Below, piece by piece: positions 9,001-15,000 of a stretch of DNA of 23,710 bases (position 1 is the first letter of the stretch; each line of letters begins with the position of its first letter). Location: the IMG/VR virus record IMGVR_UViG_2851949629_000009, positions 1 to 23,710 of that record. The stretch is one strand, 5' to 3'. This stretch comes from a virus (lineage: Duplodnaviria; Heunggongvirae; Uroviricota; Caudoviricetes). The position numbers are program-made.

Positions 9001-12000
9001 AGCCGGGGATTTTTTCTTTGTGATTCCATCCAATGCATACTTAAAAGCCCTGCTAATCGGACTGATGTCTGATGCCATTCCAAAAGCACACAATACCGAA
9101 GCAATAAATCTCCAGTCCGTTCTGCTTATCTTCGATTCATGACAGCCAATCATCTTTGCCAGACCGCGCTGGGTAATAGCTGACAGATTGATAAGTAAAT
9201 CTGTTTCTGCGCGATCAACGTCACGCTGTGATAGTTTGCTGTAACTTGTTCTTTCCATTTCTTACTATTTCCATAGGTAAATAATCACTAATACTCATCT
9301 TTCGATGAGTGCTTAATTAGTTACCGCGTTGTCGGCGGTGCAGATTGATAAAGAGCGGTGTTACTTATGCAGCCAGAAGGTTCTTTTTACTTATTTCAAG
9401 CATTTCGCTTGCTTGATATTTGCCACCAGAAATCTCTTCGATTTTTGAGGCGTATTTCGTTTTCCCAAAAAACTCAGTCTTAGGGAGGAAGCCGTTTTTG
9501 AGCCACTTATAGACAGCCCTTTCGCTAACTCCACAAGCCTTCGCAACTTCAGGTATGCCGACACCTTTAATCGGCTCATCAAGATTTTGCATAGGAATAT
9601 CCTTTTTCGTACTTTCAGTACGCATTATGATTGAACTGAAAGTTTTTGCAAGTGCTTTAGTATCGTACTCATGGTTCAGAATGAAAAAGTGCGCAAAGAA
9701 TTCGCCCAGCGGCTAGCGCAAGCCTGTAAAGAAGCTGGTCTTGATGAACATGGTAGGGGAATGGCTATAGCCCGTGCCCTTTCTCTTTCGTCCAAAGGCG
9801 TTAGCAAATGGTTTAATGCTGAGTCTTTACCGCGTCAGGAAAAAATGAATGCGCTTGCGAAATTTCTAAACGTTGATGTTGTTTGGCTTCAGCACGGCAC
9901 TTCGTTAAATGGAGCGAATGATGAAGATACTCTTTCATTTGTTGGCAAATTAAAAAAAGGGTTAGTGCGCGTGGTTGGTGAGGCAATTCTTGGTGTTGAT
10001 GGTGCCATCGAGATGACCGAAGAACGCGATGGGTGGCTCAAGATTTATAGCGATGATCCAGATGCCTTTGGTCTTCGTGTGAAAGGAGACAGCATGTGGC
10101 CCAGAATAAAATCAGGAGAATATGTACTCATTGAGCCTAACACCAAAGTATTCCCGGGTGATGAGGTGTTTGTCAGAACCATCGAAGGACACAACATGAT
10201 CAAGATTCTTGGCTATGACAGAGATGGAGAATACCAATTTACAAGCATCAACCAGGACCACAGACCAATAACGTTGCCTTATCATCAAGTAGCAAAGGTG
10301 GAGTATGTGGCTGGTATTCTGAAGCAATCTCGCCATCTGGATGACATCGAGGCAAGGGAGTGGCTGAGAAATTATTAATACCAATAGCATAGAGACGAAA
10401 ATGCGACAGGTTTTAGGTACAAATCATAACCCTATCCACAAACAACGTTGTAAATATACACATAAGACTATTGTAAAAAAAGCTCTATCCCAGTAAATGC
10501 GGTTGCAAAATGGGTTGATCGAGCATATATAAGGAGTATAGTTAGTGACCCAAGATGAAACGAATGAATATCTGAAAACCTTAGCATTGGTTCCAAGTGC
10601 AGAGGCCTCCGCAGAGGAGAAGCAGATATATAGCGTCAAAAAGGCTGTAATCGGTCTGATTGAATTTGTTACAACCAGTCTTGAAGAGCTTGGAATTGAA
10701 GGGTTGCATGAGTTAACAAACCCATCTCTTGACGAATTAGATGCAGAGCTAGAGAAACTTGACCAAAAAGCTGATGCAATCAATGAACTAAACTTAAAGC
10801 AAATCATCATATTTGCACAGATTTTAATCAAAAACATAAGAGAAAAGAATCCTGATTTGTGCTCTGAGGGATCAAAACTACTCAAGAGTGCTAAATCGGG
10901 TCTTTGACACTTACAGAGCGGAGGATAAACATGTCTAGAACTGAACATATCAAAGATATGCTTAAAAGTGCGGATCGAATCAATCAGATTATTGCTGAAA
11001 TGAAGCAGAGAAAAGCAGAAATGCTAGCATCAAAGCTTCCAATGGCAGCATAACCAAAAACACCCGCTTCGGCGGGTTTTCTTATTCCCCTAAAAAGATC
11101 AAACAACTCCACATTAGCTTTTTTGTGCCCACAGTTTTCTACCTAGCAGTTTTCTTTGCCTCCCGATCCACCATCTAAAAACACATAACCAATTGTATTT
11201 ATTGAAAAATAAATAGATACAACTTGCTAAACCACGCAATTCTGATCCCTGCCGCATAACCTTCATCCGCAACATTTACAAAAATAAATTTCCTTATATA
11301 TCAAAATCATATTTCGTAGAGTTAATAAATCATAAACGATTCGTACCAATAGTTCTTGATAATATCGAACTACTGGTTCGTTATTATCGCCATCAGCAGG
11401 ACGTTGGAAGCCAAACGGAACAGATTGGCGGGCTCTTTAACTTCGATGGGGCGCTGACAAAGCGCAAACAGATACCAAACGAGATGGGTTTGGCGGTGTG
11501 GTGAAGGGTTCATGGACGGGAATATGTCGCACGTAAAGCGGCGAGGCCTGCGGGACTATTGCCGAATTGAAGTAGGCCGAAACAGGTCGAAATGGGTCTC
11601 CCACCTACCTGTAAGCGTCAACGGAGCACCGTATTGACGCTTATTTATTAGTGAGTACTACGTTCCATGGCAGGAGTTCGTCAACTCGGTTGGAAGGCCA
11701 TTCCGGCAGTACGCTCAGGATATGGCGCAGATACGCTTCCGGATCGATACCATTCAACCGGCAGGTGCCGATCAGCCCGTACAACAGTGCACCACGCTCG
11801 CCGCCGTGATCGCTACCGAAGAACACGTAATTTTTCTTTCCGAGACAGACTGCACGAAGCGCTCTTTCCGCTGTGTTATTGTCCGCCTCCGCCAGACCGT
11901 CATCACAGAAGTTGCACAACGCAACCCAGTGCTTCCTGATATACCGGAACGCATCTCTCAGACGGCATTTTTTCGATAACGTGTGTTCTTTCTCCTGCAT

Positions 12001-15000
12001 CAGCTTATACAGGGAAGTCAGTAGCGGTTTACTCTGCATTTGCCTGACCGCCAGGCGTTCAGACACCGGCAACCCGCGTATTTCGTGCTCAATGGCGTAC
12101 AGTTCGCCGATTAGTTTCAGTGCTTCTTCCGCCGTCGCGCTTTTGGTACTGATATATACATCGTGGATTTTGCGCCGCGCATGAGCCCAGCATCCTGCTT
12201 CCGTCAACGCGCCGCCTTCACGTTCGGCACTGAACAGCCGATCGTAACCTGCGAACGCATCTGCCTGCAGGATACCCCGGAAGGGACGAAGGTGTTGCTC
12301 CGGATGTTTACCCTGATGGTCCGGTGAGTAGGCGAACCAGACCGCCGGAGGTTCTGGCGAACCGGCATTTCGGTCATCCCGGACATACGTCCAGATATAT
12401 CCTGTTTTCGCCTTCTTCCTGCCCGGTGCCAGTACTTTTACTGGTGTGTCATCAGTGTGAACCTTGCGGGTGTTCATCACATAACTGTACAGGGCATCAT
12501 TCACCGGTGTCATTAACTGGCAGCACGCATCAACCCAGTTGGAGAGTAAGGCACGGCTCAGTTCGACACCCTGGCGGGCAAAGATTTCACTCTGACGATA
12601 CAGTGGCAGGTGTTCGCAGTATTTTCCCGTTAACACGCGGGCAAGTAACCCCGGGCCCGCGATACCACGCTCTATCGGACGGGATGGTGCCGGTGCTTCA
12701 ACGATGCAGTCACATTTTGTACAGGCTTTTTTTACCCGTTCTGTGCGGATCACTTTCAGGGCGCTGCTCACCAGCTCCAGTTGTTCTGCGCTGACTTCCC
12801 CCAGATAATCCAGCTCACCGCCACACTCCGGGCAACAGCTTTCTTCAGGCTCCAGGCGGTATATTTCACGGGGGAGATGTGCCGGTAACGGACGACGATG
12901 GCGCGACTGTCGCAACTGGCGGGGAACCAGCGGGTCATCCTCACGCCCACTGTAACGATCGCTTTCCTGCTCGCGTTGTTTCAGCAGGACTTCAGCCTGT
13001 TCAACCTCACTACGCAGTTTTTCAGAACGGGTTCCGAACAGCATCCGGCGCAGTTTTTCTATCTGAGCCCGCAGATGCTCTATTTCTCGCTCATCTTCTT
13101 CGATCTTTTCTTCGGCACGTGCCAGTGCAGAGCGCAGGAAGGCCTCCGTCTCTTCAACCAGACTCAGTTGCTGGTCTTTCTGACGGAGGGCTTCAGCCTG
13201 CTCAGAGAGCAGCCTTTCCAGCTCAGCGATGCGAATGAGGTATTTCTGACCCATGGCCGTTTTTATAATCCGGCCCGGCGTTTTTTACAACATTGTCAGT
13301 GCGTTAAGGCGGGATGTTTTTGGCTGACGCCAGTCCAGCTTATCGAGGAGCATTGCCAGTTGCGAGCGGGTAATGGATATCTTACCGTCATGCACCGCAG
13401 GCCAGATAAACTGACCTTCCTCAAGGCGTTTGGTGAACAGGCACAGACCATCAGCATCAGCCCACAGGATTTTAATCGTGTCTCCCCGTCGGCCACGGAA
13501 GATAAACAGGTGACCGGAGAAGGGGTTATCATCCAGCACATGCTGTATCTGCTCCCCCAGACCGTTGAAGGATTTACGCATATCAGTAACGCCGGCAACG
13601 AGCCAGATACGGGTACCTGATGGGAGTGAAATCATCGTCCCCTCCCGGTCAGCTCACGGATCAACACCGTGAGCAGCTCTGGTGAAGGATTTTCCAGCAT
13701 CATTTTACCGTAATGGAATTCCACATGGCAGGAAGCTGCACAAGCAACTGATAATGCCTCCGGAGCAGGAGCATCTGTAGCACAGCGCGGGGTGTCGATA
13801 AGTTCCACTGGAACCAGAGTCGGAGAGGCCGGAAAAGATTGTGATACTGTAGGGCCTACAATAGTTGGAGGCATTCTACGAGAAATACGTCCTTCTCTTT
13901 GCCAGAGGCGTAGCCATTTAAAAATCAGGTTGTTATCAACGCCATGTTCCCGGGCCAGTTGTGCAACATTGGCATTTGGTTTCGAAGCCAGTTCAACCAT
14001 ATGAAGTTTAAATTCATTAGAAAATATCCGGCGGGTTCCGGAGCGCCAGTCTGTAGGTTTATCCATCAATAGAACTCCGTCTAATTTAGAAGGAGCTCTA
14101 ATTTAGTCTGCAAGGAGCAGGTGTTACAGACGGCATTGGCTTTACGCTTACACCTACCTCACCACCAAAGCCATTTTACATGAGGAAAACATCATGACGG
14201 TAATCGTGTACGGGAAATCAACATTTACAGGAAATGCCAAAACTCGCCGTCATGAGCGGCGCAGAAAGCTGGCTATCGAGCGTGATGCTATATGCAACAT
14301 CATCGATTCGATCTTCGGTACAGACAGTGATGAACCTGTTCAGAAAGAACCGAGAAAGCGTTTAAGCCTTTCTGAAAAAGCAATATCACTCGGCAACATT
14401 CGTAACCAAAATACCGACGAATGCAATGGAAGCATTTGCCTGCCAAACGTAGCCATCTACGTGGCAGGCTATCGGAAATCAAAACAACTGACGGCGAGGT
14501 AATTATGGATATTTCATGTATTGAACAATTACTAATTGAGAAAACGAAAGAAATGCTTGATGTATTGGACAAAAAAAATATCTGAGTTAAAAGATACACC
14601 CGCGACACAACTTATTCTCGAACGTAGTCGAAATAAATTCTTAGAGTTAAGCCCTGACGTTCAAAATATAGCATCTAAACTGCTGGCTACGTTGATTGAG
14701 AGGAATGCATTGTTATCGATGTCATCAGATGAACGAAAAAAACTGACGAACGAAGATGTTGCAACCATCCGCCAGGCATTCGAAATTTTGTTCTCTTAAT
14801 TACTTACTGTTTATTCTGATAATCTCATCAAGAATTTTTTCATAAACAACTGTGCTTGGCTTTCCGTCAATGCCAGGGGCAAGATTACCGGCTCTGATAA
14901 GCTCAACAATAATCTGTTGAGCGGCTTCGTGTGGGTTGGTTTTGGGATTAACAATATCTGTCATAACAAAGCCCTTCTTTTGACTGTGGAAACAACAGTC

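What the first reader, a model, noticed from the sequence alone, without database searches (positions are those of the whole stretch)
9323..14502. Mosaic antitermination module: P22-type N and nut sites embedded in lambda-type replication, nin and integration modules
N carries the arginine-rich motif GNAKTRRHERRRKLAIER and both nut sites carry P22-style boxB hairpins (nutL GCGCUGACAAAGCGC; nutR ACCGC-CGACAAC-GCGGU). O, P, ren, ninB/E/F/G/H/I, xis and int are close to lambda as I recall them. Q is a non-lambda type and the recombination module is Rad52/SSB/DEDD-exo rather than Red. This makes a clear example of modular exchange, and the nutL and nutR boxB differ from each other.
Basis: partly seen in the sequence, partly recalled or inferred. 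Interest (0 to 1): 0.4.

Follow-up and report, generated by a model that had tools for sequence, protein, structure and literature searches.

The report
P22-class N/nut module, IS-split, defective prophage
This is the ordinary early-gene "anti-stop" switch of a lambda-like virus buried in an E. coli-type chromosome: a well-known P22-style version found in hundreds of E. coli genomes, here cut off from its promoter by a jumping gene in a prophage that has also lost its late genes.

Summary
N (14194-14502, +) carries GNAKTRRHERRRKLAIER. nutL boxB GCGCTGACAAAGCGC (11451-11465, +) and nutR boxB ACCGCCGACAACGCGGT (9323-9339, -) are exact copies of the P22 boxBs, each preceded by a boxA. N is a full-length Pfam PF25694 match, 65% identical to P22 gp24 and 18-41% to lambda, phage 21, 933W and HK97 N.

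- O, P, ren and ninB/G/H/I are 96-100% lambda.
- Int is HK022/H19J type, only 75% to lambda.
- Q is phage 21 Q (100%).
- The nutL boxB is shared with 933W and HK97, so only nutR, boxA and the arginine-rich motif are diagnostic.

It lies between nutL and N, 42 bp before the ATG. A second IS66-family copy (283-2816, no duplication) has removed the late genes.

The exact N protein occurs on at least 205 E. coli contigs. Ten loci carry it with an empty IS site. The isolated phage Lambda_ev203 has the same 933W-immunity, lambda O/P and P22-class N combination. This is known biology in a defective prophage, and of low interest.

The parts
9323..9339 (-). nutR boxB, ACCGCCGACAACGCGGT
   Evidence: Exact match to P22 nutR boxB. 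Folds as 5 bp plus a 7-nt loop. Present in all 14 loci with a P22-class N and absent from lambda, HK97, 933W and phage 21.
9349..9357 (-). nutR boxA, CGCTCTTTA. The mosaic joint with 933W-type cro DNA falls inside it.
   Evidence: The window is identical to 933W up to ...ACACCGCT and then switches to the cassette shared with ev203, SH2026Stx1 and CU37RT-2.
9365..9592 (-). cro, 933W type (75 aa as called in relatives; the mechanical ORF runs to 9625)
   Evidence: 98.8% aa identity to the 933W cro region. Called as 75 aa in L009-L018.
9608..9678 (.). oR1, oR2 and oR3 of 933W immunity, with pR and pRM
   Evidence: All three annotated 933W operators are found with 0 mismatches, at 9608-9622, 9632-9646 and 9664-9678.
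9671..10378 (+). cI repressor, 933W type (LexA/S24 family)
   Evidence: 98.3% aa identity to 933W cI. phrog_4 transcriptional repressor.
10545..11077 (+). Two small ORFs (120 aa at 10545-10907; 40 aa at 10931-11053) and a hairpin terminator (11062-11077), in the position lambda uses for rexAB
   Evidence: Conserved in L009, L014, L015, L017 and L018. No Pfam or significant PADLOC match.
11356..11392 (+). pL/oL, 933W-like: -35 TTGATA, -10 GTTATT, inferred +1 at the A of ATCAGCAGGACG
   Evidence: Side-by-side comparison with the 933W pL region, and 81% identity to 933W over 11149-11609. The start site is inferred by analogy with the annotated lambda and P22 pL RNA start.
11432..11441 (+). nutL boxA, GCTCTTTAAC
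   Evidence: Same as P22 and phage 21 boxA-L.
11451..11465 (+). nutL boxB, GCGCTGACAAAGCGC (GACAA pentaloop)
   Evidence: Exact match to the P22 boxB-left used in PDB 1A4T. Also identical in 933W and HK97. Folds at -7.1 kcal/mol.
11611..14151 (-). IS66-family insertion sequence (ISEc43-like, 2541 bp): tnpA 13632-14069, tnpB 13285-13635, tnpC 11641-13254. Ends begin GTAAGCG. 8-bp target duplication ACCTACCT at 11603-11610 and 14152-14159.
   Evidence: The empty site is seen at 98-99% identity in L009, L012 and L017, where the two flanks overlap by 9 bp.
11611..11652 (+). Strong hairpin plus U-rich tail at the IS end that a pL transcript meets first (terminator-like)
   Evidence: -20.8 kcal/mol, z = -4.35, followed by UUUAUUAG. 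Function is inferred.
14194..14502 (+). N antiterminator, P22 class, intact; arginine-rich motif at residues 13-30
   Evidence: PF25694 residues 1-102 against model 1-100/100. phrog_271. 64.7% to P22 gp24, 86% to Lambda_ev203 N, 92% to the CU37RT-2 prophage N. The exact sequence occurs on at least 205 contigs.
3057..3545 (-). Q antiterminator, phage 21 type
   Evidence: 100% aa identity to phage 21 Q. PF06530.
2966..3050 (-). pR' with the Q21 binding element (ATTGAGCA AATGAGCA) and tR'
   Evidence: 98.4% identity to the annotated phage 21 region.
283..2816 (+). Second IS66-family element (90% identical to the first over 2.1 kb). No target duplication. It joins tail-fibre-region DNA (1-282) to a tRNA-Thr gene that has lost its last 7 nt.

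Best explanation
The interval holds a standard lambdoid N-antitermination module of the P22 specificity class. From established P22 and lambda biology, the nascent pL and pR transcripts fold into the boxB hairpins. The N-terminal arginine-rich helix of N binds them. With the Nus factors recruited at boxA, the complex makes RNA polymerase resistant to downstream terminators, so the delayed-early genes (recombination on the left; O, P, nin and Q on the right) are expressed. N, nutL and nutR are a matched set that is inherited together, although the immunity region (here 933W type) lies between them. The joints of the nut cassettes fall in short sequences conserved among lambdoid phages: inside boxA at nutR, and just after the pL +1 motif ATCAGCAGGACG at nutL. 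In this copy the module is probably disabled. An IS66-family element has transposed into the leader between nutL and N, so N can be made only if polymerase crosses 2.5 kb of untranslated antisense IS RNA, which begins with a terminator-like hairpin, before any N exists. A second IS has deleted everything from the 3' end of the tRNA-Thr gene downstream of Q to the tail-fibre region. The element is therefore a defective prophage remnant. Shown here: the identities, coordinates, hairpins, target duplication, empty sites and the deletion. Inferred: antitermination activity and the silencing of N.
For: N is a full-length PF25694 match at E=2.8e-38. Its arginine-rich motif is 18/19 identical to the P22 peptide NAKTRRHERRRKLAIERDT, solved bound to GCGCUGACAAAGCGC (PDB 1A4T, cited in PMC11480772). 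Both boxBs equal those of P22, sit in canonical positions and have boxA 9 nt upstream. All 14 loci with a P22-class N carry both boxBs exactly, across at least three different immunity and replication backgrounds. The joints are visible in the alignments. The IS has three IS66-family genes, GTAAGCG ends and a perfect 8-bp duplication. The empty site is present at 98-99% identity in loci with the identical N. There is a -20.8 kcal/mol hairpin with a U-rich tail at the IS end first met from pL. C exceeds G on the + strand through most of the IS. No consensus-like promoter faces N on the + strand in the last ~650 bp of the IS; the only + strand match inside it, at 13503-13532, scores 9 of 12. The late-region deletion rests on this: 1-282 matches the tail-fibre region of a lambdoid prophage, copy 1 has no duplication, and tRNA-Thr is truncated relative to phage 21.
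Against: No expression data exist. N, its Shine-Dalgarno sequence and both nut sites are intact, so a low level of readthrough could bootstrap N synthesis, because N-modified polymerase would then read through the IS. The hairpin tail is only moderately U-rich, with 5 U in 8. A promoter inside the IS that the simple consensus scan rates weakly or misses cannot be excluded. Antitermination activity and Nus dependence are assumed from P22 at 65% overall identity.
Confidence: 0.85

Rival explanations
1. The module still works as it stands. Enough transcription crosses the IS, or starts inside it, to make N, and the positive feedback of N acting at nutL then restores full pL expression. On this reading the IS is a neutral passenger.
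For: The N ORF, its ribosome-binding site and both nut sites are intact. N-modified polymerase is known to suppress the polarity of IS insertions downstream of nut sites in lambda (established knowledge). The terminator scan found only weak + strand candidates inside the IS.
Against: N must be made before it can act. There is a strong hairpin with a U-rich tail at the IS entry. The 2.5 kb of untranslated RNA has C exceeding G, which favours Rho. No consensus-like promoter faces N near the IS end. The prophage has lost its late genes, so selection for N is likely relaxed.
Confidence: 0.25
2. N and the nut sites belong to the 933W/HK97/H-19B class, matching the 933W-type immunity around them, rather than the P22 class.
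For: The nutL boxB is identical in 933W and HK97. The last ~50 residues of N are 53-55% identical to 933W and HK97 N, and the last 64 nt are 92% identical to 933W. The leader at 11450-11609 is 91% HK97-like.
Against: Full-length identity is 64.7% to P22 gp24, against 40-41% in the global alignment to 933W and HK97 N. Those proteins are 127 aa, with a different arginine-rich motif (GNSRSRRRERLKAKAL). The nutR boxB and both boxAs match P22, not 933W, whose nutR is TCGCTGACAAAGCGA and which has no boxA-like sequence near nutL.
Confidence: 0.03
3. The two hairpins are chance inverted repeats with no relation to N.
For: They are short, at 15 and 17 nt, and their folding z-scores in context are modest (-0.8 and -1.3).
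Against: Exact identity to the P22 sites, with 0.07 and 0.00 matches expected by chance. Correct positions and strands, with boxA at the correct spacing. Perfect co-occurrence with this N class in 14 loci.
Confidence: 0.01

Closest known systems
Salmonella phage P22 gene 24 protein with P22 nutL and nutR (N peptide-boxB complex, PDB 1A4T)
   Same: Arginine-rich motif 18/19 identical to the solved peptide. nutL and nutR boxB are identical, 15/15 and 17/17. boxA-spacer-boxB architecture. Same protein length class (102 vs 100 aa), aligned end to end. C-terminal ...YxAGxRKSKQxTAR.
   Different: Only 64.7% identical overall; the middle third is diverged. The flanking genes are 933W, lambda and phage 21 types rather than the P22 types c2, cro, 18 and 12. 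Here nutL and N are separated by an IS.
Escherichia phage Lambda_ev203 (LR597650) and the E. coli prophages in L009-L018
   Same: Same combination of 933W-type cro and cI, lambda-type O and P, and P22-class N with both boxBs. L009-L018 encode the identical N protein and are 98-99% identical in DNA on both sides of the IS site.
   Different: They have an uninterrupted nutL-N leader. The ev203 N is 86% identical. Their pL-operon cargo downstream of N differs (Red or RecT instead of Rad52/SSB/exo).
933W/HK97/H-19B N class
   Same: Identical nutL boxB. GACAA loops. Conserved C-terminal tail. Here it shares a genome with the 933W immunity region.
   Different: A longer protein (127 aa), a different arginine-rich motif, a different nutR boxB (TCGCTGACAAAGCGA) and no boxA-like sequence next to nutL.
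Phage 21 late control (Q21, QBE, pR', tR', tRNA-Asn, tRNA-Thr)
   Same: Q is 100% identical. 98.4% DNA identity from Q to the tRNA-Thr gene.
   Different: Phage 21 N (30% identity) and its boxBs are a different class. In the window the IS junction removes the last 7 nt of tRNA-Thr and the lysis genes that follow in phage 21.
IS66 family (ISEc43/ISEc23-like)
   Same: Three genes tnpA, tnpB and tnpC, GTAAGCG termini, 8-bp target duplication, about 2.5 kb.
   Different: Nothing unusual. Only the insertion site is particular: no other genome searched has it.

Membership tests
P22-class N antiterminator (Pfam PF25694 N_peptide) | Full-length profile match above the curated threshold | tested here: met
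   130.9 bits against a cut-off of 27.9; residues 1-102 on model positions 1-100/100.
P22-class N antiterminator (Pfam PF25694 N_peptide) | N-terminal arginine-rich motif of the P22 type | tested here: met
   NAKTRRHERRRKLAIERDA against NAKTRRHERRRKLAIERDT, 18/19.
P22-class N antiterminator (Pfam PF25694 N_peptide) | Cognate boxB hairpins with a GACAA loop, downstream of pL and of cro, each preceded by boxA | tested here: met
P22-class N antiterminator (Pfam PF25694 N_peptide) | Nus-dependent antitermination activity at its own nut sites | not testable with these tools
   Needs a reporter assay.
Lambda N class | Sequence similarity to lambda N and GAAAA/GAAGA-loop boxB (GCCCTGAAAAAGGGC) | tested here: not met
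   No tblastn hit; 18% identity in the alignment; different boxB.
Phage 21 N class | Similarity to N21 and phage 21-type boxB | tested here: not met
   30% identity over 79 aa; the phage 21 boxBs are unrelated in sequence.
933W/HK97/H-19B N class | 127-aa N with the motif GNSRSRRRERLKAKAL and nutR boxB TCGCTGACAAAGCGA | tested here: not met
   Only the C-terminal ~50 residues align (53-55%); nutR differs.
933W immunity group | cI and cro near-identical, with the annotated oR operators present | tested here: met
   cI 98.3%, cro 98.8%, oR1-3 at 0 mismatches.
Lambda-type replication module | O and P proteins of lambda type | tested here: met
   O 98.3%, P 99.1%, Ren 97.9% to lambda. The ori iterons were not examined separately.
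Lambda integration module | Int of lambda specificity | tested here: not met
   Int is 74.9% to lambda and 96.6-99.4% to HK022, H19J and Stx1a-phage Int. Xis is 97.6% to lambda.
IS66 family | tnpA/tnpB/tnpC organisation, terminal repeats beginning GTAAGCG, 8-bp target duplication | tested here: met
   PF01527, PF05717 and NF033517; ends and duplication read directly.

The most novel reading that the evidence does not exclude
Because the P22-class nutL boxB is letter-identical to the nutL boxB of 933W and HK97-class phages, an N of this class made by a defective resident prophage could bind the nutL RNA of a co-resident Stx phage of the 933W class. That would make the relic a trans-acting modifier of Stx-phage early (pL operon) transcription. 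N could come from IS readthrough or from an IS-borne promoter. The IS would then set the level of N rather than simply killing it.
Probability: 0.05. Interest if true: 0.45.

Novelty: already known. Interest (0 to 1): 0.1.

Why it matters
It matters little beyond annotation. The result shows how N and its two nut sites travel as a matched set through different immunity and replication backgrounds, with joints at short conserved sequences (boxA and the pL start motif). That is textbook lambdoid mosaicism. The useful practical point is that this prophage should be annotated as defective: N is uncoupled from pL and nutL by an IS66-family element, and the late region has been deleted by a second one.

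Tried and rejected
- PDB sequence search with N found only a chance hit (E=0.64). The 1A4T peptide was not retrieved, so the peptide sequence was taken from PMC11480772 instead.
- Rfam at gathering thresholds found only the two tRNAs; it returned no nut or boxB family match.
- NCBIfam has no model matching N or Q.
- PADLOC gave nothing significant for the small ORFs in the rex position or downstream of N. The one hit, AbiEi at E=0.004 and 14.8 bits, is not credible.
- The exact IS/leader junction was not found in the GTDB representative genomes. No place in 5,426 complete E. coli genomes covered at least 80% of a query spanning the junction. The source strain was therefore not identified.
- The whole window has no match covering at least 80% in complete E. 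coli genomes.
- I considered an inversion between the two inverted IS copies. It is rejected because copy 2 keeps a perfect direct target duplication and the gene order is collinear with lambda.
- I considered a frameshift at the A8 run after N. All seven sequences that have this stretch (six loci and the window) carry the same A8, so there is no evidence for it.
- A literature search for papers treating 933W and P22 nut sites together returned nothing directly relevant.
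Full report
**What is there**

The window is the early region of a lambdoid prophage, in the reverse of the conventional lambda orientation. Reading left to right, it contains:
- a tail-fibre-region fragment (1-282)
- an IS66-family element (283-2816)
- tRNA-Thr and tRNA-Asn, then tR', pR' and Q
- the nin genes, ren, P, O and cII
- nutR, cro, oR and cI
- two small ORFs and a terminator
- oL/pL and nutL
- a second IS66-family element (11611-14151)
- N, then ral, ea10 and cIII
- Rad52, SSB and an exonuclease, then abc2 and further ORFs
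- xis and int

**Check of the observation**

N is an intact 102-codon ORF at 14194-14502 (+), and residues 13-30 are GNAKTRRHERRRKLAIER.

| Site | Sequence | Coordinates | Matches expected by chance |
|---|---|---|---|
| nutL boxB | GCGCTGACAAAGCGC | 11451-11465 (+) | 0.07 (at up to 2 mismatches) |
| nutR boxB | ACCGCCGACAACGCGGT | 9323-9339 (-) | 0.00 |

- Each boxB lies 9 nt downstream of a boxA: GCTCTTTAAC at 11432-11441, and CGCTCTTTA at 9349-9357 on the minus strand.
nutL gives a 5-bp stem with a GACAA pentaloop at -7.1 kcal/mol. nutR gives a 5-bp stem with a 7-nt loop at -5.9 kcal/mol.
- Read against the P22 reference genome, both boxBs are identical to the P22 nutL and nutR boxBs.

**Which N family**

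| Compared with | Identity to the window N |
|---|---|
| Pfam PF25694 "Transcriptional antitermination N peptide" | full-length match, 130.9 bits, E=2.8e-38 |
| P22 gp24 | 64.7% over all 102 residues |
| 933W and HK97 N | 53-55%, over the C-terminal ~53 residues only |
| 933W, HK97 and lambda N (six-sequence alignment) | 41%, 40% and 18% |
| Phage 21 N | 30% over 79 residues |

- The arginine-rich motif is 18/19 identical to the P22 peptide NAKTRRHERRRKLAIERDT. That peptide was solved in complex with GCGCUGACAAAGCGC (PDB 1A4T, as cited in PMC11480772).
- Two caveats apply. The nutL boxB is also the nutL boxB of 933W and HK97, so only the nutR boxB, the boxAs and the arginine-rich motif are diagnostic. 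The closest relatives are E. coli phage and prophage N proteins, at 86% (phage Lambda_ev203) and 92% (prophage of strain CU37RT-2), not P22 itself.

**The surrounding modules**

Protein-level comparison with lambda, P22, HK97, 933W and phage 21 gives:

| Module | Closest type |
|---|---|
| O, P, Ren | lambda: 98.3%, 99.1%, 97.9% |
| NinB, NinG, NinH, NinI | lambda: 99.3%, 99.0%, 100%, 95.9% |
| NinE, NinF | closer to HK97 (94%) and P22 (96%) |
| ninC/ninD position | replaced by an HK97/933W-type DNA methyltransferase (98-99%) |
| 4999-5268 and 5430-5873 | two ORFs with no lambda counterpart |
| cI and cro | 933W: 98.3% and 98.8% |
| oR1, oR2, oR3 | the three annotated 933W operators, 0 mismatches, at 9608-9678 |
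| oL/pL | 933W-like |
| cII | about 90% to 933W and 88% to HK97 in protein; about 97% DNA identity to phage 21 across it |
| Q | 100% identical to phage 21 Q |
| Q binding element, pR', tR', tRNA-Asn, tRNA-Thr | 98.4% identical to phage 21 |
| Xis | 97.6% to lambda |
| Int | 74.9% to lambda; 96.6-99.4% to HK022, H19J and Stx1a-phage integrases |
| Recombination | Rad52/Rad22 (PF04098), SSB (PF00436), Rv2179c-like 3'-5' exonuclease (PF16473) |

It was wrong about int. It did not notice that the genes flanking the nut sites are 933W-type.

**Where the joints are**

- At nutR, the window is identical to 933W from cro up to ...CATAAGTAACACCGCT, which is inside boxA. It then switches to a cassette of about 100 bp shared almost exactly with ev203, SH2026Stx1 and CU37RT-2, and shared through boxB with P22. 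It rejoins the 933W/21-type sequence at the cII start.
- At nutL, the window follows 933W through the conserved pL start motif ATCAGCAGGACG. It then switches to P22-like sequence through boxA and boxB, and continues as HK97/933W-like leader.
- Across 14 loci with a P22-class N, in at least three different immunity and replication backgrounds, both boxBs are invariant.
- This is the expected behaviour of a specificity-matched N/nutL/nutR set exchanged by recombination at short conserved sequences.

- Positions 11611-14151 are a 2541-bp IS66-family element. Its genes are tnpA (PF01527), tnpB (PF05717) and tnpC (NF033517), all on the minus strand.
- RefSeq annotates its close relatives as ISEc43-family.
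- Its ends begin GTAAGCG, and it is flanked by a perfect 8-bp direct duplication, ACCTACCT, at 11603-11610 and 14152-14159.
- It sits between nutL and N. The IS ends 42 bp before the N start codon, and the duplicated target ends 34 bp before it.
- Ten assemblies that encode the identical N protein have the same cro, cI, 120-aa ORF, 40-aa ORF and N layout with an empty site. In L009, L012 and L017 the two flanks abut with a 9-bp overlap at 98-99% identity. The IS is therefore a clean secondary transposition.
- The junction was not found in the GTDB representative genomes, and no place in 5,426 complete E. coli genomes spans it.

**Likely consequence (inferred)**

- A pL transcript, with +1 inferred at about 11392, forms nutL. 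It then enters the IS antisense to the transposase genes.
- It first meets a -20.8 kcal/mol hairpin (z = -4.35) followed by UUUAUUAG. It then crosses about 2.5 kb of untranslated RNA in which C mostly exceeds G.
- No consensus-like promoter faces N on the + strand in the last ~650 bp of the IS. The only + strand match inside the element, at 13503-13532, scores 9 of 12.
- N is needed to suppress such polarity, and N lies beyond the IS. Its synthesis is therefore probably much reduced.
- I put about 0.6 on strong silencing. Readthrough followed by bootstrapping cannot be excluded.

**The prophage is defective in any case**

- The other IS66-family copy (283-2816) is 90% identical to the first over 2.1 kb and has no target duplication: GCTGATAT on one side, GGTTAACG on the other.
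- Its right end removes the last 7 nt of tRNA-Thr relative to phage 21, where the lysis genes follow.
- Its left flank (1-282) matches the tail-fibre region of lambdoid prophages, with gpJ lying on the deleted side.
- Lysis, head and most tail genes are therefore gone.

**Is it new?**

- The exact N protein occurs on at least 205 contigs of E. coli, with close variants in E. albertii.
- The same combination of 933W immunity, lambda O/P and P22-class N exists in the isolated phage Lambda_ev203.
- N proteins of this class are common in Stx phages.
- The module is a known kind, and the arrangement is already in the databases. Only the IS insertion site is particular to this sequence.

**Verdict**

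This is already-known biology and of low interest. Its main value is a corrected annotation: P22-class N and nut sites in a 933W-immunity, lambda-replication, Q21, HK022-int mosaic, split by an IS, in a defective prophage.

Noticed in passing
window 283-2816, with flanks 1-282 and 2811-2965: A second IS66-family element, 90% identical to the one upstream of N, with no target duplication. It joins tail-fibre-region DNA directly to a tRNA-Thr gene that has lost its last 7 nt. The whole late region (lysis, head, most tail genes) is therefore deleted.
   Followed up: yes
window 10545-11077: Two small ORFs (120 aa and 40 aa) plus a strong hairpin terminator lie between cI and oL, where lambda has rexAB. 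They are conserved in five of the ten loci with the identical N. They have no Pfam match, only an unknown-function PHROG, and no credible PADLOC match. This may be a lysogen-expressed cargo or exclusion cassette of unknown function.
   Followed up: partly
window 11611-11652 (+): The IS end that faces incoming pL transcription folds into a -20.8 kcal/mol hairpin (z = -4.35) followed by a U-rich tail. It may be an inward-facing terminator shielding the IS from outside transcription.
   Followed up: partly
L014 1-1987 (GCA_052766285.1, CM127658.1): A sibling prophage with the identical N carries the same IS (99.1% identical) at a different site. There it replaces everything beyond window position 8632, inside the O gene. 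This IS appears to have hit this prophage type more than once.
   Followed up: no
window 14506-14799: Two overlapping reading frames, MDISCIEQLLIEKTKEMLDVLDKKNI* and a 79-aa ORF at 14560-14799, meet at an A8 run (14571-14578). The run length is the same in all six loci that have this stretch, so there is no sign of a recent frameshift. Whether slippage joins the frames is unknown.
   Followed up: partly
window 20687-20701 (+): A boxB-like sequence, GCGCCGACAAAACGC, with 2 mismatches to the nutL boxB, lies inside a coding ORF of the pL operon. It cannot form the full 5-bp stem and is probably chance.
   Followed up: no
window 22637-23710: Int is the HK022/H19J type (96.6-99.4%) rather than lambda type, while Xis is 97.6% lambda and 100% HK97. 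The integration site is probably the HK022 site, not lambda attB. The att sites lie outside the window.
   Followed up: partly
window 16427-18207: The recombination cassette is Rad52/Rad22-like annealase, SSB and an Rv2179c-like 3'-5' exonuclease, replacing Red. The C-terminal 79 residues of the annealase are 65% identical to the C-terminus of P22 Erf, so this gene is itself a chimera.
   Followed up: partly
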